Sequence record: MZ189261.1
From: Escherichia phage S143_2
DNA: 64,000 bases
Reading direction: 5' to 3' (one strand)
Below, in pieces: positions 16,809-60,304 of the stretch (positions are counted from its first letter, which is position 1; each line of letters opens with the position of its first letter). The translations under genes and the position numbers were made by a program. The notes under the pieces were generated by a model. It made no database searches and was not told the origin of the DNA. It saw nothing but the letters and a program-made list of their open reading frames with translations.

Positions 16809-17468
16809 TTAACCTCGATTCATAAATGCATTAAATATTTGGTCATCAACAGAAATTTCTAATTCAGCTTCAATTGTTTCAGCCTTTTCTTCAGGTGGTA
16901 ATTCGTATCCACACACTACAATTTTTTCATCGATATCAAAATATACAGAAGCAATACGATTAATGTTATTTTCAGTTAAGTCTAAATCAACATCAACATC
17001 TTTTTGACCTTCACTTAAAGGATAACTAATACGGGTTATTTTATTATCTTTAACAAAGAGTCCACCAACATACTCTGTACTACGTTTGAAGTTTACACGT
17101 TTCCGAATTGAAAGATATGATGCATCTTTACCGTGAGCTCGGCTCATAGGACATAATGAATAGCTAGAATAAGAGATGTCAAATCCTACACCTTCAATAT
17201 GAGCCAACGTGTCATGATTAAACCAATTATAATCATATGCCAAATCCATTATATTGTAATATGTGAAAGGCACCGGATTAACATCATACGTTGTACCTTT
17301 AAAATCTGCCCAGGCAATGATTTCGTTATCTTTAACAATTACAAAAATTACACCAATATGATATCCGTTATTATTTTCGTTCGGCGTTATATTATAACAT
17401 TGTGCATTAGGAAATTTACCATATTTAAATGGCGCATTTTTGTGCATATAATAAATCATATTATTCAC
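16809..17468 (-). CDS. hypothetical protein (219 aa)
   Basis: ORF track. Confidence 0.55.
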   Translation of the reverse strand: MNNMIYYMHKNAPFKYGKFPNAQCYNITPNENNNGYHIGVIFVIVKDNEIIAWADFKGTTYDVNPVPFTYYNIMDLAYDYNWFNHDTLAHIEGVGFDISYSSYSLCPMSRAHGKDASYLSIRKRVNFKRSTEYVGGLFVKDNKITRISYPLSEGQKDVDVDLDLTENNINRIASVYFDIDEKIVVCGYELPPEEKAETIEAELEISVDDQIFNAFMNRG

Positions 17469-17754
17469 CTGTGATTTCGGTTACGATATCTTTGTTATCG
17501 AAATTAGGGTCACAATACAAAACATAATTGTACTGCATGATACCGCCAGACTTAAGTTGTTCAACAACTTTATTAACCATATTAGGACGGTCTCGTTTAG
17601 TGATGTTCATGATATCAGAGAAGATTTGTTGTTCAACATCTTCTTGATTTGCAGTCATTGACCACTCACAGAGGTCTTTATCATAACCTGCCGTAACTGG
17701 AGCTGGTGCACATGATACTGCGAGTAAGATTGCTGCCAATGATAACCTTTTCAT
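17461..17754 (-). CDS. sp: periplasmic protein with signal peptide, Spackle (Sp)-like
   Basis: 97 aa, N-terminal signal sequence; size and Cys pattern fit T4 Sp. Confidence 0.5.
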   Translation of the reverse strand: MKRLSLAAILLAVSCAPAPVTAGYDKDLCEWSMTANQEDVEQQIFSDIMNITKRDRPNMVNKVVEQLKSGGIMQYNYVLYCDPNFDNKDIVTEITGE

Positions 17755-18127: not shown

Positions 18128-18496
18128 TTAATTAAATTTGTTTAAACGTTCAATACACTGGATGTAGTTATTCGCGATTTGTTTCTGGGTAGGCTCTTTA
18201 CCAGTTGTTTCAACATAGCGAATGAATGCGATTTCAGTAGCCTGTAAGCAATGTTCTTTAACGCGCTGTTCTTTTGACATAGCTACAGTATCAGAATCAC
18301 GATAACGTTGAGCATGAGCATCAGCTTGAATCATTCGATTACCTACAGTAACCGGGTCTTCCACTTCAACTTTAGGTTGTTCATACTGTTTAACATTCGG
18401 ATTGTAAATCAGTTGGCCGACGTTATTAGGAATAAAGCCATGGGCACCACATCCTGTTAATCCAAATACCATTGCTAAAGCGATTAATTTTTTCAT
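18128..18496 (-). CDS. putative lipoprotein (122 aa)
   Basis: signal peptide with LTGC lipobox. Confidence 0.55.
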   Translation of the reverse strand: MKKLIALAMVFGLTGCGAHGFIPNNVGQLIYNPNVKQYEQPKVEVEDPVTVGNRMIQADAHAQRYRDSDTVAMSKEQRVKEHCLQATEIAFIRYVETTGKEPTQKQIANNYIQCIERLNKFN

Positions 18497-39590: not shown

Positions 39591-39806
39591 TTATCTCATT
39601 AAATTAAAATAAAAACGTCCATCCTCTTCAATACAGAACTCATACTCAACCGGAGTCCCATTTATTGAAAATGACACGTCATGTGGGTTCAAAGGGTCGA
39701 TGTCAAAATTAATTTTAAATTCACGACCCAACAGTTTTACCAAATAAGGGATTGCTTCGTCAAAAGGTTCTTCTAAGTAGTTAGAGATGTCAATTGTCAT
39801 CCTCAT
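39591..39806 (-). CDS. hypothetical protein (start uncertain)
   Basis: ORF track 39591..39884 trimmed because it overlaps the gp55 end. Confidence 0.35.
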
Positions 39807-40347
39807 ATAAAAAATCCAAACTAGGCGAATCGCTAACAACTTCCTTCTTTTCAGCCCCAGGAGCTTTATAAGCGGATTCTTCATAATGCGTCATTTTATC
39901 GTAGATGTCTTGAATAAACGTTTCATCTACCAACGCTACCATATCATCGTCATGACTGTCGTAGACATTATGAACGAAGTAACTATATTTCTTTGCAACT
40001 TCCTTACGTTCTTTTTTGATACGTTGGACAAAAGCATTAAAACAAGCTCGAGTTATGTATGCATGTGGGTTATTGTACTTAGTTTCGTCGAAATTATGAA
40101 GTCCCTTAATAGAGGCTTCAATCCCATCTGCAATCATCTCCTGCTTCCAAGACTGGGTATATCCTGAAAAGTTGAAACGTTTGGACAGGCCTTCGGCGAT
40201 AAGCATAATTGCTAAACCGATGGTATCATTCTGACGAATAATTTTGTTTGGGTCTTTATTATTTAAGAGCTCCTTTTTCCACTCGATTATAGCGGCGAGA
40301 AGCTCTTTATTATTCACATAGTTATTTTTAGGTTTTTGTTCAGTCAT
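39790..40347 (-). CDS. 55: late-transcription sigma factor gp55
   Basis: 185 aa, sigma region-2-like block [24 protein letters not shown]. Confidence 0.9.
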
Positions 40348-52710: not shown

Positions 52711-53712
52711 TTATTTCAGTAAAGTTACTTCAGAGATTTCCTCCCAACCATCTTTATCAGTTGAAATAAAATCTGCCACATAAAGAGCCGTACGTAATGA
52801 TACATTGCGAAGACGAGATACGTTAGCCTTCATCCAGGACAATGCTTTGTACGTTTCAGCATCAGTCAGACCACGTTTCTGCATCATGTCAGTAGATAAT
52901 ATTACATCTTCAACTCGAACCATAATCTCTTCATTAGAGTGTACTCCAAGATCGAGATATACTGAACGAGATACTAAAGCTTGAAGGTGAGGAGCAAGTT
53001 TCGAACCACGTTCTAACTCTTTATCAATATCAACGTTTGTAATGAAAACGATAGTACCTTCAAACTCAAATTCTTTATCAATACCCTTATCATCGAGATA
53101 AGATGACGCAGTGCTCCAACAAACTTTGCGTTTATCACCGGTATCTAATGCTGCTTTAAGAAGGTTCAAGATGTCCATATCCGAGAATACGTCAACGTCG
53201 TCGATTAAGAGAACGCTGTCTGCATCACGGTTGAGCCAAAGTTGTTCGTAAAGGCCAATACCAGAGATTTTACCATTAATACTTTTGTATTTGATGAAAC
53301 CATTATCATTAGCATTATTAAGTGCTTTATCCAGAGAATACGTCTTACCAATACCTGCTGCACCTGAAATAATGAGTGAACGAATTTTGCCATCGATAAT
53401 ACCATTCGTCATCATGTTCATTACTTTAAAGCGTTTGTTGATACGAGTTTTCATATCTTCAGTGCTTTCAACAACTGCAACTGGTGACGTCTCAACTCCT
53501 TCCATTACGATGTCTGATTTGAAGACCCATACTCCACGTTCAGAACCGTCAATCATAACGAAAATTTTACCATCACCTAAGTGGGAACATTCAGGATTAA
53601 GCTTTGCCGGGAACCAGGTCTTTGTGGCAACATAAGAACCAGAGATTTCGTTATTACGATAGATACCTTTTTTGATTTGAACGTTGAACATTTTATTCTC
53701 CAATTTACTCAT
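52711..53712 (-). CDS. P-loop ATPase (AAA-like) with N-terminal unknown domain
   Basis: Walker A GAAGIGKT, Walker B VLLIDDVD, 333 aa. Confidence 0.6.
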   Translation of the reverse strand: MSKLENKMFNVQIKKGIYRNNEISGSYVATKTWFPAKLNPECSHLGDGKIFVMIDGSERGVWVFKSDIVMEGVETSPVAVVESTEDMKTRINKRFKVMNMMTNGIIDGKIRSLIISGAAGIGKTYSLDKALNNANDNGFIKYKSINGKISGIGLYEQLWLNRDADSVLLIDDVDVFSDMDILNLLKAALDTGDKRKVCWSTASSYLDDKGIDKEFEFEGTIVFITNVDIDKELERGSKLAPHLQALVSRSVYLDLGVHSNEEIMVRVEDVILSTDMMQKRGLTDAETYKALSWMKANVSRLRNVSLRTALYVADFISTDKDGWEEISEVTLLK

Positions 53713-53720
53713 TTCGTTTC

Positions 53721-53758
53721 GATAGGTCTATAATAACATGTTTAAAGCAAAAGTAAAC
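53721..53758 (-). promoter_or_regulatory. early promoter
   Basis: minus-sense GTTTAC, 17 nt, TATTATAGACCTATC. Confidence 0.55.
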
Positions 53759-53760
53759 AA

Positions 53761-53979
53761 TTATTTGCGACGAGATTTTTTGGTAAGAGGTTGAAAGAAC
53801 ACTGCTTTACCGGCTGGGGTTAAGGTGACTCGTAATGCATTACCGATTCCTAAGGATGCTTTAACTAGACCTTTAGCTTTCAGTTCACCGAATGCTTGAC
53901 GTTGGTCTGCGTCACGAGTGTTAACCATAAGACCTTTATCACCTGCTTCACGAATCATTTCTAACATTTTGGTTTTCAT
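53761..53979 (-). CDS. small basic protein, possible DNA-binding
   Basis: ORF track 53761..54036 trimmed to ATG (MKTKMLEMI) behind GAGGAGAA SD. Confidence 0.45.
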   Translation of the reverse strand: MKTKMLEMIREAGDKGLMVNTRDADQRQAFGELKAKGLVKASLGIGNALRVTLTPAGKAVFFQPLTKKSRRK

Positions 53980-53998
53980 TTTGTTCTCCTCTTGTTTT

Positions 53999-54036
53999 GA
54001 TAGGTCTATAGTATCATATCCTAAAAGCATGTACAC
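53999..54036 (-). promoter_or_regulatory. early promoter (variant -35 GTGTAC)
   Basis: minus-sense GTGTAC, 18 nt, TACTATAGACCTATC. Confidence 0.45.
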
Positions 54037-54054: not shown

Positions 54055-54083
54055 TAACCCCCTAAAGGGACCCGAAGGTCCCC
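54055..54083 (-). terminator. UUCG-tetraloop hairpin
   Basis: minus-sense gggacc-ttcg-ggtccc. Confidence 0.45.
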
Positions 54084-54087
54084 ACAT

Positions 54088-54369
54088 TTACTTATCGCAC
54101 TTAGCAACATAATTAGGCATATCACAGAATACGGAGCGAGTAACTACTCGGCCCTTTGACCATGCTTCAGTTGCTTGTCCGGCCGTGCTATTAATATAGC
54201 TTGATCTAATGTTCTCAATACCCTGAGAATGTGATGCATTTACCGAACCATTAGAAGGCCCAGAAGACTGGTTACCACCAGCTCCTGCACTACCACCAGC
54301 AGCACCCGTGGTAGCACCAACAGAGAATGCCATCATTACTGCGAATAAACCAATTACTAATTTTTTCAT
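54088..54369 (-). CDS. secreted Gly/Ser-rich small protein
   Basis: signal peptide MKKLVIGLFAVMMAFSVGA; exact late promoter just upstream. Confidence 0.5.
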   Translation of the reverse strand: MKKLVIGLFAVMMAFSVGATTGAAGGSAGAGGNQSSGPSNGSVNASHSQGIENIRSSYINSTAGQATEAWSKGRVVTRSVFCDMPNYVAKCDK

Positions 54370-54400
54370 ATTTACCTCAAGTTAATGGTTATTTATCTAC

Positions 54401-55390
54401 TTATTTATAGTAAGAATTATGATTTTCGAGATAGACTTGTTCAAGGAAGTCATCCCAGAAACTCATATCTACTTTTTGTTGCATACCGTTCTTGGCAGCT
54501 TGTTCTGACGCATGTTCAACTTGGTCAACGATATCTTCTAGGAATTCTTGTACAGTTTTAAAAGTATGTTTACCAAGCTTAACATCGAGAATAAATGGAG
54601 CATCCTGAAGTGGGTAAACCAGGTCGCCTGTTTTGTAAATTTCCAATAATTGAAGTCCACCACGGCATGCATGACTCAATGCTTTCCAGTCAATACCTTC
54701 GTTAGCTTCTGCTTTACGAGCACGTTCGCCATAGTTCTCTTCTAGTTTAACAAGGATGGCATTGAACTCTTTATTGGTTAACGTGTCTTGGAATTTACGG
54801 TCTAACAGATTATAGAATGTTTGCTTACCTGTTTTCTCGTTTTCGGTTTCAACCCATGAAGCAAATTCACCTACAGGCAGAACATTCTTCATATGTGATA
54901 AACGAATTACTGCACCATTATCAAAGTATTGTCCCCATTCATTAGAACGTTTAAGGGCTTGACGAAGAACAGCCAGTCGAGAACCCTTGACACCGTATTT
55001 AGAAGCTTGCTTACGGACATACCCTAAATAAGATTTCATGTTAGTGGTATAGAAACGAGACCTGTTATCTTGAATATACTTCCATACATCAGGCAAATCA
55101 GATTTAACTACTAGACTTGGTGGAGTGTGAAGCATATCTAATGCGACGGTTTCACCATCCGCAGCTAGTTTAAAGAAATATTTGAGACTATACAACTCAT
55201 GGTCCACGTCGTCTTTTGTGTTCTTAGAAGATGTGTTATTCGTGTTCTTGCTCATATGTTCTTTAACGTTACCGGTCAAAATATCACGAGCATGAGGGAC
55301 ATAAATTTCTTTAAAATCGACGTCAGATTCAGGAGTAGACGTTCCATAAAGGTGGCTACCAAAGTAGCCTTTCATAATTGTTTTCATCAT
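54401..55390 (-). CDS. nucleotidyltransferase-fold protein (Pol-beta superfamily)
   Basis: GS-x9-SDVD signature (YFGSHLYGTSTPESDVDF), 329 aa. Confidence 0.55.
   Translation of the reverse strand: MMKTIMKGYFGSHLYGTSTPESDVDFKEIYVPHARDILTGNVKEHMSKNTNNTSSKNTKDDVDHELYSLKYFFKLAADGETVALDMLHTPPSLVVKSDLPDVWKYIQDNRSRFYTTNMKSYLGYVRKQASKYGVKGSRLAVLRQALKRSNEWGQYFDNGAVIRLSHMKNVLPVGEFASWVETENEKTGKQTFYNLLDRKFQDTLTNKEFNAILVKLEENYGERARKAEANEGIDWKALSHACRGGLQLLEIYKTGDLVYPLQDAPFILDVKLGKHTFKTVQEFLEDIVDQVEHASEQAAKNGMQQKVDMSFWDDFLEQVYLENHNSYYK
54402..54409 (-). promoter_or_regulatory. late promoter TATAAATA
   Basis: exact TATAAATA on minus strand about 30 nt before ATG of 54088..54369. Confidence 0.5.
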
Positions 55391-56707: not shown

Positions 56708-56746
56708 GATAGGACTACTATAACATAGTCCTACCAAGATGTAAAC
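56708..56746 (-). promoter_or_regulatory. early promoter with stem-loop
   Basis: minus-sense GTTTAC, 17 nt, -10 in ggacta...tagtcc hairpin, GGAGAA SD. Confidence 0.5.
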
Positions 56747-57243: not shown

Positions 57244-57546
57244 TTAGATAGATGTAGGCTCTAATTTTATTTTCATGAACTCGGCAAATTGTCTGGCAGT
57301 TTTTATGCCTTGTTCATGACATTCAAATGCATCATCACAGGGGCTATTTTTGTAATGCTTTGCCATATACTTATAGAATTTTTCAGAATTCTCTACATTT
57401 TGAATTTCAAACAAAGTATATACGTTTTTAATCCCTGATTCCATAAAGTTATCAAAATATGGGTCGGTGTACGCAGTACCAACGATAGGAGTTGTTGCTG
57501 CAAAAAACCCCAGCATCGCCATGACAGCTATCGCTCTTAAGGCCAT
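57244..57546 (-). CDS. rI: lysis-inhibition regulator RI-like (signal-anchored)
   Basis: 100 aa, MALRAIAVMAMLG signal, DPYFDNFMESGI and conserved Cys pair; position upstream of tk. Confidence 0.55.
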   Translation of the reverse strand: MALRAIAVMAMLGFFAATTPIVGTAYTDPYFDNFMESGIKNVYTLFEIQNVENSEKFYKYMAKHYKNSPCDDAFECHEQGIKTARQFAEFMKIKLEPTSI

Positions 57547-57558
57547 ATAGGCCTCCTG

Positions 57559-57771
57559 TTAATTTTGGCCAGTATTTATTTTTCGCCTTTGGACGGCCTT
57601 AACATCTGTGAGGTATTTTTCCAGCTTGCGCTTGCGTGTATAATCAGCTTTAGAACCAGTTTGACGGATATCCTCGTTTAAATGAGAAATAGAATGTCCT
57701 AATTCTCTTCGGATTTCATCCAATTGGGCTACAGTAAGATTACGAAGTTGTCTTTCGTTTAATTGCTGCAT
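57559..57771 (-). CDS. hypothetical basic protein (70 aa)
   Basis: ORF track. Confidence 0.45.
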
Positions 57772-57798
57772 ATATACCTCTTGGTTAGATATTAGTAT

Positions 57799-58380
57799 TT
57801 ATAACAACCCTGTCAAATCATTCCAATGCTTCCGGCATAATGACACATATCTATCAGTATCACCAATTTCAATTTGACTGCCATCTGTAATTGGAAGTCC
57901 GTCTTCCGTGACTCTAGCTACCATTGTGGCCTTTTTACCACAATGACAGACACCTTTAAGTTCAACAAGCTTATCGGCAATAGCCATTAATGCTTGAGAA
58001 CCTTCAAATAGATTACCTTTAAAATCTGTTCGTAGTCCATATGCCATTACCGGCACATTGTATACGTCAACAATACGACTAAGTTGATACACCTTTTCAG
58101 TAGTTAAGAATTGAGCTTCGTCAACAAATACACAATGAATATCCTTTTGTGCTGCAGCCCATTTATAGAATTCAAAGATATCCATGTCTTTTGTAATTAT
58201 ATTGGCGTCCTGACGAATACCAATACGAGAGACTATTTCACCTTTTGAATCGCGAGTATCAATAGCCGGTTTAAGAACTAATACACCCATGCCACGTTCT
58301 TTATAGTTATGAGCGGCAGTAAGTAATGAAGCAGACTTACCAGCGTTCATAGCGGCATATGTAAAAATTAAACTAGCCAT
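57799..58380 (-). CDS. tk: thymidine kinase
   Basis: Walker A AAMNAGKS, zinc-ribbon Cys pairs, 193 aa. Confidence 0.9.
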   Translation of the reverse strand: MASLIFTYAAMNAGKSASLLTAAHNYKERGMGVLVLKPAIDTRDSKGEIVSRIGIRQDANIITKDMDIFEFYKWAAAQKDIHCVFVDEAQFLTTEKVYQLSRIVDVYNVPVMAYGLRTDFKGNLFEGSQALMAIADKLVELKGVCHCGKKATMVARVTEDGLPITDGSQIEIGDTDRYVSLCRKHWNDLTGLL

Positions 58381-58976: not shown

Positions 58977-59455
58977 TCAACAATCACAATTTCTAGTTTA
59001 GTGGAATATGTATCAAGAATTTCTTCAATGATATCCCAGTTTCCACCACCTATACCTGCACCAATTCTTGGCATATAAATTACAGGCTTTGTTATCTTAT
59101 TTTTTCCGAATTCATTTAATTCTATTATACAATTCGTTAAAGCATAGTACTCAAAATTAGGTCCCGGCTCAAACTGTGTATAAAGATTAAAGCAATAAGC
59201 TTTATGGGTCTTAAAATATTTTTCATAAACCGAATAAGTCCCGAGTTTAGACTCGTCTCCGAATTCGGTTTGAAGTTTATCGGCTTCTAGAATTTTTGGA
59301 TAAGCCTTTGCTAATTGTCCTGCCACACCGGCGCCCATTGTATGAAAACAATTACACCCATGAGCTATATTATTACCTTTAGAAAACAGGGCGACAATAT
59401 CGCCCTTGATATAGTTTTTAATCACTTGCTGCAAGTCCTCTAGTATAAGAGTCAA
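58958..59455 (-). CDS. macro-domain protein (ADP-ribose binding/hydrolase fold)
   Basis: HGCNCFHTMGAGVAG and IGAGIGGG glycine-rich loops, 165 aa. Confidence 0.55.
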   Translation of the reverse strand: MTLILEDLQQVIKNYIKGDIVALFSKGNNIAHGCNCFHTMGAGVAGQLAKAYPKILEADKLQTEFGDESKLGTYSVYEKYFKTHKAYCFNLYTQFEPGPNFEYYALTNCIIELNEFGKNKITKPVIYMPRIGAGIGGGNWDIIEEILDTYSTKLEIVIVDWEPLL

Positions 59456-59765
59456 CTAGACGGTCCACCATAGAATTGCATGCTGCCTTATCTTTAGGTT
59501 CCGCCACCGAGCATTCTAATATTTGCCATTTTTTATAGTATCTTTTAATTAAGGTAGACGCCTTGAACCTACTAGACGCCCCATCTTTTTCTCCGTCTTT
59601 ATACGCATATAACAATTTTTGTGAAAAATCTACTTTACACTCTTGACTTTTACCACAATAATCAGACGCCGTTCTGTTTGTATACTCCGTTACATCAGTA
59701 TATGTAGTATTAGCAAGAGCGCTAAATGAAACCAAGCCAACTATTAAAGCCAACATTTTGGTCAT
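59418..59765 (-). CDS. secreted protein (115 aa)
   Basis: signal peptide MTKMLALIVGLVSFSALA. Confidence 0.45.
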   Translation of the reverse strand: MTKMLALIVGLVSFSALANTTYTDVTEYTNRTASDYCGKSQECKVDFSQKLLYAYKDGEKDGASSRFKASTLIKRYYKKWQILECSVAEPKDKAACNSMVDRLVDSYTRGLAASD

Positions 59766-60304
59766 TCTTTTATTTCCAGTAGTTTATTTGATTTAAGGTA
59801 ATTAGCCTTTTCTAGGACTTCAGAAGCATATTTACTTCCAGCACTTGTCTTCCATCCCGCATTATATGAGGATATAGCTTTTCTTATATCCCCGTTATGT
59901 ATATTTAACCAATAAGAAAATTCGATATAAGCCCATCTGGCTGAATTAGACCGCTTAGATAGCATTTTCTTAATTTGGGCATCAGTCATATTATAACCAA
60001 GCTGGTTAATTCTTGCCCTCATTGTTGGTAGATAATTTTGGAACATTCCATACGCATGGTGACCTTTCTTATTTTTAAGATTAATACCGGCAGATGATTC
60101 CTGCCATAGTATTGCGGCCATTATGTATCCAAGTCCTTTCTTATGCATATTTTCATGCGTTTTAAATTTTCCATCCTTAGAAAACTGTTCCCCAAACTGA
60201 TAAGCATAATTCAAGTTATCGAGTTGGACATTACTAAAAGTATGCTCGGAGCTATGTGCTGATAACGAAAGAGCAAATAGACCAGCGAGTAGTGCTTTTC
60301 TCAT
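59762..60304 (-). CDS. soluble lytic transglycosylase-like protein with signal peptide
   Basis: SLT motifs WQESSAG and GMFQ; 180 aa. Confidence 0.6.
   Translation of the reverse strand: MRKALLAGLFALSLSAHSSEHTFSNVQLDNLNYAYQFGEQFSKDGKFKTHENMHKKGLGYIMAAILWQESSAGINLKNKKGHHAYGMFQNYLPTMRARINQLGYNMTDAQIKKMLSKRSNSARWAYIEFSYWLNIHNGDIRKAISSYNAGWKTSAGSKYASEVLEKANYLKSNKLLEIKE

What the first reader, a model, noticed from the sequence alone, without database searches (positions are those of the whole stretch)
54088..54409. Late promoter driving a secreted Gly/Ser-rich protein inside an early-gene region
An exact TATAAATA lies about 30 nt upstream of a 93-aa ORF with a clear signal peptide and a Gly/Ser/Ala-rich, Asn/Gln-containing mature region. 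The only other exact late promoter in the window is upstream of soc. A late, exported small protein here could act in lysis timing or the envelope.
Basis: seen in the sequence. Interest (0 to 1): 0.4.

Follow-up and report, generated by a model that had tools for sequence, protein, structure and literature searches.

The report
Late-promoter cassette for small exported phage protein
A T4-like (Mosigvirus) phage carries a 317-bp optional gene cassette, with its own late-promoter motif, that encodes a small protein exported to the bacterial periplasm; the gene is real and conserved, but it has no detectable relatives of known function, so its role is unknown.

Summary
The window is a Mosigvirus (RB69-like T-even phage). 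A 93-aa ORF lies at 54088..54369 on the minus strand. It has a canonical Sec signal peptide, a Gly/Ser/Ala linker of variable length, and an invariant 55-aa core ending in a two-Cys loop. An exact TATAAATA (54402-54409) sits 32 nt upstream, followed by GAGG, and a UUCG hairpin follows the stop.

The gene is under purifying selection (dN/dS 0.02-0.25).

Corrections:
- There are three exact TATAAATA sites, not two. The third overlaps the tk stop, upstream of rI.1/rI.
- Seven of the eight promoter bases are the last codons of nrdC.11. Phages lacking the gene (T4, RB69) read TATAAATG there.
- No terminator separates the gene from upstream early genes, and the ribosome site is not sequestered, so early read-through expression is also expected.
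- Orthologues in Gaprivervirus and Dhakavirus sit behind MotA-type middle promoters, so late-only timing is not a family trait.

The family is an orphan. It matches only PHROG 2243 (unknown function), an exhaustive profile search found nothing beyond itself, and AlphaFold confidence was about 50. A role in the cell envelope is inferred, not shown. This is an ordinary accessory gene of a T-even hyperplastic region, of modest interest.

The parts
54402..54409 (-). Exact T4-type late-promoter motif TATAAATA. Bases 1-7 are the last codons of nrdC.11 (TAT AAA T..); base 8 is the middle base of its TAA stop.
   Evidence: Kept in all 9 distinct Mosigvirus carrier sequences examined (window, L001-L003, L010/L014 (same contig), L019-L021), even across a 4-bp deletion next to it. 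The 6 non-carrier loci read TATAAATG. Already annotated as a T4-late-like promoter in GenBank OL960576.
54390..54397 (-). Second, near-consensus copy GATAAATA (G instead of T at the first position), 4 nt downstream of the exact motif.
   Evidence: The first position is the most tolerant one in T4 late promoters (PMC2988020). Its function was not tested.
54375..54378 (-). Shine-Dalgarno GAGG, 5 nt before the ATG.
   Evidence: Sequence. Unpaired in the predicted folds of both read-through and late-start RNA.
54088..54369 (-). CDS of the 93-aa precursor plus stop. Signal peptide aa 1-19 (54313-54369), Gly/Ser/Ala linker aa 20-37 (54259-54312), conserved core aa 38-93 (54091-54258) with C82 and C91.
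   Evidence: Matches PHROG 2243, E 8.5e-38. Found in 102 phage records by tblastn.
54067..54083 (-). Hairpin GGGGACC-UUCG-GGUCCC just after the stop, followed by UUUAGGGGGUUAAAAUAUUUUU. It is the terminator shared with nrdC.11 in phages that lack the gene.
   Evidence: Annotated as a rho-independent terminator in OL960576. Homologous hairpins in RB69 and T4 directly follow nrdC.11.
54086..54402 (-). The 317-bp insertion/deletion unit (the cassette), flanked by the 5-bp direct repeat TAAAT (54403-54407 and 54086-54090).
   Evidence: Megablast homology of non-carriers stops at query base 68, which is window 54403. Homology of carriers to RB69 resumes at TAAATG. Sequences.
54008..54036 (-). Early-type promoter (TGTACA-16 nt-TACTAT) of the next gene (72 aa, 53761..53979). 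Together with the hairpin it forms a PeSL-like terminator/promoter block.
   Evidence: Sequences. The PeSL concept is from PMC2839356 and PMC4122927.
54401..55390 (-). nrdC.11 homologue (RlaP-family nucleotidyltransferase). This is the upstream gene whose C-terminal codons supply 7 of the 8 motif bases.
56717..56745 (-). Nearest upstream sigma-70/early-type promoter match (TTTACA-17-TATAGT, with TG). Putative source of read-through transcription into the gene.
   Evidence: No minus-strand terminator-like site lies between it and 54400.

Best explanation
This is a self-contained 317-bp accessory gene cassette. It sits between the stop codon of nrdC.11 and that gene's hairpin terminator, in a hyperplastic early region of a Mosigvirus genome.

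Product. The cassette encodes a 93-aa precursor. I infer that it is exported by Sec and cut by signal peptidase I after V-G-A19. That would release a periplasmic protein of about 74 aa, made of a flexible Gly/Ser/Ala linker of variable length and an invariant 55-aa core. The two C-terminal cysteines (C82, C91) would form a DsbA-made disulfide loop.

Transcription. I infer two sources. Early on, the gene is read as the last cistron of the upstream early unit, because no terminator intervenes and the ribosome site is open. After replication starts, it is read from its own gp55-dependent late promoter TATAAATA. That promoter is a composite. The resident gene's last codons (Tyr-Lys-stop) give TATAAAT, and the cassette side gives the eighth base A, because the stop is TAA or TAG rather than the TGA of phages lacking the gene. 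The result would be a continuous supply of the protein that increases late. The nearby rI.1/rI genes show the same layout, with a TATAAATA overlapping the tk stop.

Function. This is inference only. The protein is most likely a non-essential periplasmic factor that binds an envelope or periplasmic target. The role would be protective or timing-related for the infected cell, such as superinfection exclusion or modulation of lysis inhibition. It is not an enzyme or a virion part.
For: Gene is real:
- In-frame indels are confined to the linker, and 46 columns are invariant across three genera.
- dN/dS is 0.02-0.25, with dS above 1 between genera.

Export signal:
- MKK, a 12-residue hydrophobic region, V-x-A at -3/-1 conserved as VGA/VLA/VMA, and no lipobox.

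Promoter:
- Exact 8-mer 32 nt before the ATG, similar to the 31 nt at soc.
- A gp55 homologue is present in the window.
- The 8-mer is under-represented overall, and all three copies precede ORFs on the coding strand.
- The eighth base A is present in all 9 carrier sequences examined and is G in all 6 non-carrier loci.
- The motif is kept across a 4-bp deletion that changes the stop to TAG.
- Independent annotators marked it as a late promoter.

Read-through:
- No minus-strand terminator lies between the promoter match at 56745 and the gene.
- SD/AUG is unpaired in both RNAs.

Cassette nature:
- Homology breakpoints fall at 54403 and at TAAATG.
- Absent from T4 and RB69.
- About 94-102 carrier records against 59 RB69-type non-carrier records.
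- All four presence/absence combinations with the neighbouring 72-aa gene exist.
Against: - No transcript, protein or phenotype data exist for this gene in any phage found.
- 7 of the 8 promoter bases are coding-constrained. The carrier/non-carrier contrast comes from few independent lineages: one carrier haplotype and two non-carrier haplotypes.
- Orthologues in Gaprivervirus and Dhakavirus use a middle promoter, not a late one, so late expression is not needed for the family's function.
- Signal-peptide cleavage is predicted from simple rules only. The uncharged Gly/Ala tract after the hydrophobic region could instead allow membrane anchoring.
- The functional guess rests on location and timing alone. 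There is no homologue, no Pfam/NCBIfam/PADLOC hit above threshold, and no confident structure (pLDDT 50).
Confidence: 0.6

Rival explanations
1. The TATAAATA is a by-product of the nrdC.11 C-terminal codons (Tyr-Tyr-Lys) plus a TAA stop and has little promoter activity. The gene would then be an early/middle gene expressed only by read-through, as its orthologues are expressed from middle promoters.
For: - T4 and RB69, which lack the gene, already carry TATAAATG at the same place.
- TAA is a common stop codon.
- All 9 Gaprivervirus/Dhakavirus loci have GCTT-N14-TA(T/C)A(A/G)T about 37 nt before the ATG and no TATAAATA.
- The read-through path is open.
Against: - T4-type late promoters need essentially only this 8-mer (PMC2988020).
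- The 8-mer is scarce in the window, and every copy sits just before an ORF.
- The eighth base tracks gene presence in all 15 loci examined, and survives a neighbouring 4-bp deletion and a TAA-to-TAG change.
Confidence: 0.2
2. The protein is a lysis-timing component, for example a co-antiholin or a stabiliser of RI in lysis inhibition.
For: - By my recollection, not checked here, the late-made exported proteins known in T4 are mostly lysis proteins (RI, the holin, the spanins).
- The rI.1/rI genes, 3 kb away, have the same promoter-over-stop layout.
Against: - No similarity to RI (hhalign probability 1.8%).
- RB69, T4 and about 59 Mosigvirus records lack the gene, although lysis inhibition is well documented for T4 (background knowledge, not checked here).
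- Orthologues are middle-expressed.
Confidence: 0.15
3. The N-terminal segment is not cleaved and acts as a signal anchor. The Gly/Ser/Ala tract would then be a tether holding the conserved core at the periplasmic face of the inner membrane.
For: - There is no charged residue from K3 to E52 (only H47 lies between).
- The linker varies in length and is glycine-rich, as tethers are.
- From memory, T4 RI uses a signal-anchor-release domain.
Against: - The strongly hydrophobic stretch is only about 12-16 residues.
- V-x-A at -3/-1 is conserved in nearly all members, which fits a cleaved signal peptide.
Confidence: 0.1
4. The peptide is released at lysis, or exported further, and acts on other cells as a bacteriocin-like or signalling peptide.
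For: - It is small, glycine-rich and has a C-terminal disulfide loop.
- By eye it resembles the C-terminus of microcin V (EAW..GR..C..P.N..C).
- There is a weak N-terminal hit to a bacteriocin-family model (NF053514, E 0.09, 13 bits against a cut-off of 40).
Against: - BLASTP and hhalign against microcin V are not significant.
- The exhaustive profile search found no relatives outside the family.
- It has a Sec signal rather than a double-glycine leader, and there is no neighbouring immunity or export gene.
Confidence: 0.05

Closest known systems
T4 rI.1/rI (RI antiholin) locus
   Same: A small exported periplasmic protein gene in the early region, on the early strand. An exact TATAAATA overlaps the stop codon of the upstream gene (tk). 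In this window the site is 57796-57803, and T4 has it at the same place.
   Different: No sequence relationship (hhalign probability 1.8%). RI is found across T-even phages, whereas this gene is optional. The RI function is known; the function of this gene is not.
T4 Spackle (sp, gene 61.3)
   Same: A precursor of about 95 aa with a Sec signal peptide, giving a periplasmic protein of about 75 aa that contains cysteines. It is a non-essential envelope-level function of T-even phages. That Sp and Imm act in superinfection exclusion is cited in PMC13128918.
   Different: The window has its own Sp homologue at 17461..17754, so this gene is not a replacement for it. The two were not compared directly. 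Sp is an early gene (from memory).
soc late promoter
   Same: An exact TATAAATA 31 nt before the start codon, on the same strand as the early genes, a few bases after the upstream stop.
   Different: Soc is a capsid decoration protein without a signal peptide.
PeSL modules (promoter-early stem-loop) of T4-type hyperplastic regions
   Same: An optional ORF bounded by a conserved hairpin plus an early-promoter block. Close relatives differ by presence or absence of whole modules (PMC2839356 and PMC4122927).
   Different: The left boundary here is not a PeSL. It is a 5-bp TAAAT microhomology inside a late-promoter motif at the end of a coding sequence.
E. coli YbgS-like family (Pfam PF13985)
   Same: A secreted, low-complexity Gly/Ser-rich small protein. 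It gave a weak hit over residues 1-69 (E 0.0067, 17.1 bits).
   Different: The score is below the Pfam gathering cut-off of 27 bits. The match covers only the signal peptide and the low-complexity linker, not the conserved core.

Membership tests
T4-type (gp55-dependent) late promoter | Exact or near-exact TATAAATA at about -10 | tested here: met
   Exact match at 54402-54409 (-).
T4-type (gp55-dependent) late promoter | The phage encodes the late sigma factor gp55 | tested here: met
   tblastn with T4 gp55 gives 90.7% identity at 39802..40347 (-).
T4-type (gp55-dependent) late promoter | Placed on the coding strand shortly upstream of a gene start | tested here: met
   32 nt before the ATG, compared with 31 nt at soc and 24 nt at rI.1.
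T4-type (gp55-dependent) late promoter | Conserved among orthologous loci | tested here: inconclusive
   Kept in all 9 Mosigvirus carrier sequences examined, but 7 of 8 bases are coding-constrained. Absent from 9 of 9 Gaprivervirus/Dhakavirus loci, which have a middle promoter.
T4-type (gp55-dependent) late promoter | A late, gp55/gp33/gp45-dependent RNA 5' end in vivo | not testable with these tools
   No transcript data were found for any carrier phage.
Sec (type I) signal peptide | Positive n-region, hydrophobic h-region of 10-15 residues, small residues at -3/-1 | tested here: met
   MKK, then LVIGLFAVMMAF (Kyte-Doolittle about 2.7), then V17-G18-A19. V-x-A is conserved in nearly all members. 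Simple rules only; no trained predictor was available.
Bacterial lipoprotein (type II signal) | Lipobox L-x-x-C with an invariant Cys at +1 | tested here: not met
   No Cys before residue 82.
PHROG 2243 | Significant full-length match to the profile | tested here: met
   E 8.5e-38, residues 1-93 against profile positions 2-87 of 87. The family is annotated 'unknown function'.
YbgS-like (PF13985) | Score at or above the Pfam gathering cut-off (27 bits) | tested here: not met
   17.1 bits, over the signal peptide and linker only.
RI antiholin family | Sequence or profile similarity to RI | tested here: not met
   hhalign probability 1.8% against the window's own RI.
MliC/PliC lysozyme inhibitors | Profile similarity beyond the shared W-S-K-G tetrapeptide | tested here: not met
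   hhalign probability 1.3% over 10 columns. No Pfam hit.
Microcin V / class II microcins | Sequence similarity and a double-glycine leader | tested here: not met
   BLASTP E 8.6 and hhalign probability 0.3%. The leader here is a Sec signal.
PeSL-bounded accessory module | Hairpin plus early promoter directly flanking an ORF that is present or absent among close relatives | tested here: met
   Hairpin at 54067-54083 and promoter at 54008-54036 on the downstream side. Carriers and non-carriers were compared. The upstream boundary is a microhomology, not a PeSL.

The most novel reading that the evidence does not exclude
The protein founds a new class of T-even periplasmic effector, unrelated to RI, Spackle or Imm. 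It would bind a host envelope component or an incoming phage's injection apparatus through its disulfide-loop core. Its late promoter would have been created at the moment of insertion, when the cassette completed a 7/8 proto-promoter already present in the last codons of nrdC.11. That would be a clear natural example of a gene changing temporal class (middle in Gaprivervirus and Dhakavirus, early plus late in Mosigvirus) through where it landed.
Probability: 0.2. Interest if true: 0.55.

Novelty: new member of a known kind. Interest (0 to 1): 0.3.

Why it matters
If the protein has a defined periplasmic target, it would add a fourth small exported effector to the T-even set (RI, Sp, Imm). Natural carrier and non-carrier phages already exist for comparison, with roughly 100 and 60 sequenced genomes. 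Mosigviruses are being developed for therapy and biocontrol, so an optional envelope-acting gene could affect host range, phage cocktail compatibility or lysis behaviour. The promoter arrangement also gives a simple, testable case of how a late promoter can arise from coding sequence plus an insertion. On present evidence, however, it is one of many uncharacterised accessory ORFs in T-even hyperplastic regions. It is already annotated as a hypothetical protein in GenBank, and its late promoter is marked in one record.

Tried and rejected
Homology searches that found nothing useful:
- Pfam, NCBIfam and PADLOC scans gave only sub-threshold, low-complexity or signal-peptide hits.
- PDB sequence search: nothing better than E 0.5.
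- Two word-indexed searches of 5.8 billion proteins found only close relatives, 21 clusters in all.
- An exhaustive HMM search of 1.84 billion representatives with a profile of the conserved core found only the family's own cluster.

Structure:
- AlphaFold2 on the full protein with 22 sequences, and on the core with 7 sequences, gave pLDDT 50.0 and 50.5. I did not run fold searches because they would be meaningless at that confidence.

Leads by eye, all rejected:
- The C-terminus resembles microcin V, and 'WSKG' is shared with MliC. BLASTP and hhalign give probabilities of 2% or less.
- RI similarity was rejected.

Regulation:
- I tested for translational gating of the kind I recall for T4 e, soc and I-TevI, where the SD is hidden in early read-through RNA and freed in the late transcript. 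No such hairpin is predicted, and the 141-nt read-through segment folds no better than shuffles (z = -1.5).

Other searches:
- IMG/VR scans yielded only 2 loci with the gene and 7 with the nrdC.11 end.
- The recent AV110 'Emp' preprint, the only Mosigvirus-plus-transcriptome hit followed up (bioRxiv 10.64898/2026.09.14.751387), concerns a different gene (gp94, 109 aa). It chose its candidates by homology to T4, so this gene was not screened.
- The HXS periplasmic defence paper has no bearing on this gene.

Full report
**What the window is.** The 3.5 kb around the finding is 93-98% identical to many Mosigvirus genomes (RB69-like T-even phages of E. coli and Shigella; best full-length hit Shigella phage phi25-307). 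All genes here run on the minus strand, in the T4 order nrdC.8 - nrdC.9 - nrdC.10 - nrdC.11 - mobD.1 ... rI - rI.1 - tk. This is the classical early/middle 'hyperplastic' region.

**Checking the observation.**
- The ORF is at 54088..54369 (-), 93 aa.
- An exact TATAAATA lies at 54402-54409 (-), 32 nt before the ATG.
- GAGG lies 5 nt before the ATG.
- A GGGGACC-UUCG-GGUCCC hairpin starts 4 nt after the stop. It is annotated as a terminator in a sister genome.
- The N-terminus is MKK, then 12 strongly hydrophobic residues, then V-G-A, with no lipobox. The rest is 49% Gly+Ser+Ala+Thr and 12% Asn+Gln.

First, the window has three exact TATAAATA sites, not two. The third, at 57796-57803 (-), overlaps the tk stop 24 nt before rI.1/rI, and T4 has the same site. 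Second, the 8-mer is not more frequent than chance: 3 copies against 7.3 +/- 2.6 expected. The signal lies in placement, since all three copies are on the coding strand 24-32 nt before a start codon. The phage has a gp55 homologue 91% identical to T4 gp55, so the motif can be read.

**The gene is real.** tblastn finds it in 102 phage records. In an alignment of 24 sequences from three genera, indels are in frame and confined to the Gly/Ser/Ala linker, so precursors range from 85 to 98 aa. There are 46 invariant columns, most of them in the core: PSNGS..ASHSQGIENI.SSY.N.T.G.A.EAW.KGR.VT.SVFC.MP.YV..C.K, including both cysteines. Pairwise dN/dS is 0.02-0.25, with synonymous sites near saturation between genera.

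**It is an optional cassette.** T4 and RB69 lack the gene. In those phages nrdC.11 ends ...TAT TAT AAA TGA TA(A)G GG and is followed at once by the hairpin terminator. In carriers the sequence reads ...TAC TAT AAA TAA GTAG...[gene]...GATAAG TAAATG TGGGGACC-hairpin.
- Megablast of the carrier junction against non-carriers stops exactly at window base 54403, the seventh base of the motif.
- Megablast of the RB69 junction against carriers resumes at TAAATG.
- The indel is therefore 317 bp, flanked by a 5-bp direct repeat TAAAT.
- About 94-102 records carry it, and 59 have the uninterrupted RB69-type junction.
- The neighbouring 72-aa gene (RB69 ORF102c, PHROG 6001) is a second, independent module. 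The window has both genes, RB69 only the 72-aa gene, phiEC1 and SA79RD only the 93-aa gene, and LF82-1 neither.
- The hairpin plus the early promoter after each module fits the PeSL terminator/promoter blocks proposed to drive modular shuffling in T4-type phages (PMC2839356, PMC4122927).

**The promoter.** Seven of its eight bases are the last codons of nrdC.11 (Tyr-Lys plus the T of the stop) and are already present in phages without the gene, which read TATAAATG. The eighth base A depends on the stop being TAA or TAG rather than TGA.
- In the loci I could read base by base, all 9 carrier sequences have TATAAATA and all 6 non-carrier loci have TATAAATG.
- Two carriers have a 4-bp deletion directly after the motif. 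It changes the stop to TAG but keeps the 8-mer.
- One GenBank record already marks the site as a T4-late-like promoter.
- T4-type late promoters need little beyond this 8-mer (PMC2988020).

Taken together this favours a working late promoter. The carrier/non-carrier contrast, however, reflects only a few independent lineages, and there are no transcript data.

**Not a late-only gene.** No minus-strand terminator-like site lies between the nearest upstream early-type promoter match (56745-56717) and the gene. In gene-less phages the hairpin after the gene is nrdC.11's own terminator. The gene is therefore the last cistron of an early unit. I tested whether read-through RNA hides the ribosome site, as I recall it does for T4 e and soc. 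It does not: SD and AUG are unpaired in both the read-through and the late-start RNA.

The orthologues in Gaprivervirus (VR7, VR25 and metagenome contigs) and Dhakavirus (phage 04086 and contigs) add to this. In those phages nrdC.11 ends SYYR*, an extra 75-aa ORF follows, and the gene is preceded by a MotA-type middle promoter (TGCTTCA-N12-TATAGT or TGCTTTA-N12-TACAAT) about 37 nt before the ATG. There is no TATAAATA in any of the 9 loci. The MotA-box pattern is strongly enriched in this window too (24 against 4.9 expected), but none precedes this gene. The temporal class therefore differs between genera, and the protein is evidently useful well before lysis.

**What the protein is.** There are no informative relatives.
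- PHROG 2243 ('unknown function') is the only significant family match.
- The Pfam YbgS hit (17 bits against a cut-off of 27) covers only the signal peptide and linker.
- NCBIfam, PADLOC and PDB gave nothing.
- Two word-indexed searches and one exhaustive profile search of 1.84 billion representatives found only the family itself.
- AlphaFold2 models have pLDDT of about 50, so I did not run fold searches.
- Resemblances I noticed by eye to microcin V, MliC and RI are not supported.
- The window already encodes a Spackle homologue, RI and other exported proteins, so this gene adds to the usual set rather than replacing a member.

**Most likely mechanism.**
- Shown: the anatomy of the cassette, its optional distribution, purifying selection, the promoter, SD and hairpin signals, and the signal-peptide features.
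- Inferred: Sec export and cleavage after A19; a C82-C91 disulfide; dual transcription (early read-through plus a late promoter) giving continuous and rising periplasmic supply, as for rI.
- Inferred weakly: a non-essential envelope-level role, such as superinfection exclusion or modulation of lysis inhibition, exerted by binding through the conserved core.

The rivals are in the fields above: a motif with no activity, a lysis-timing role, a membrane-tethered form, and a released peptide.

**Verdict.** The feature is real and was mostly described correctly, but it is ordinary in kind. It is an uncharacterised accessory gene in a T-even hyperplastic region, already annotated as a hypothetical protein, with its late promoter noted in one record. 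The mildly interesting points are the composite origin of the promoter, the change of promoter class between genera, and the availability of many natural carrier and non-carrier phages for a simple functional test.

Noticed in passing
window 57796-57803 (-): Third exact TATAAATA. It overlaps the tk stop codon, 24 nt before rI.1 (57559..57771) and upstream of rI (57244..57546). T4 has the same site (record position 59753).
   Followed up: yes
window 53761..53979 (-), with 53720-53739 and 53997-54017: The 72-aa gene (RB69 ORF102c, PHROG 6001, no Pfam hit) is a second optional module. All four presence/absence combinations with the 93-aa gene occur among Mosigviruses. Both modules are followed by near-identical early-promoter blocks (GATAGGTCTATA(A/G)TA(A/T)CAT on the + strand).
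   Followed up: partly
window 54086-54090 and 54403-54407 (-): A 5-bp direct repeat TAAAT flanks the 317-bp cassette. In addition, the last six coding bases GATAAG recur in the non-carrier junction TATAAAT-GATAAG-GG. This suggests gain or loss by recombination at microhomology.
   Followed up: partly
L019 (phiEC1) and L020 (ESCO47), junction after nrdC.11: A 4-bp deletion (AGTA) right after the motif gives TATAAATAGATAAATA. The stop codon becomes TAG, the distance to the ATG shortens from 32 to 28 nt, and the exact 8-mer is kept.
   Followed up: yes
window 54390-54397 (-): Second, near-consensus motif GATAAATA 4 nt downstream of the exact one. It is unknown whether it matters.
   Followed up: no
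window 54259-54312 (-): The Gly/Ser/Ala linker differs in length between phages by in-frame indels (precursors of 85-98 aa). The DNA there is made of GGT/GCT-type codon repeats, so replication slippage is a likely cause.
   Followed up: partly
window 17461..17754 (-), 18128..18496 (-), 59418..59765 (-), 59762..60304 (-): A crude scan found other predicted exported proteins: a Spackle homologue (97 aa), a 122-aa lipoprotein with lipobox LTGC, and two ORFs I take from the T4 gene order to be the vs and vs.1 homologues. Only their N-termini were inspected.
   Followed up: no
whole window: The MotA-box middle-promoter pattern TGCTTNA-N10-13-TANNNT occurs 24 times against 4.9 expected. 12 of the 24 matches lie on the minus (gene-sense) strand.
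   Followed up: no
window 52711..53712 (-): The mechanical ORF for nrdC.10 (AAA-type ATPase) is 333 aa. Related genomes annotate 326 aa starting at MFNVQIKKG, which is preceded by GGAGAATAAAATG, so the real start is probably 53691.
   Followed up: no
L005, L023-L025 (Dhakavirus), about 100 nt upstream of the orthologue: The small ORF upstream of the orthologue contains CTATAAATGATAT, the same TATAAATG string seen at the T4/RB69 junction. It is probably a coincidence.
   Followed up: no
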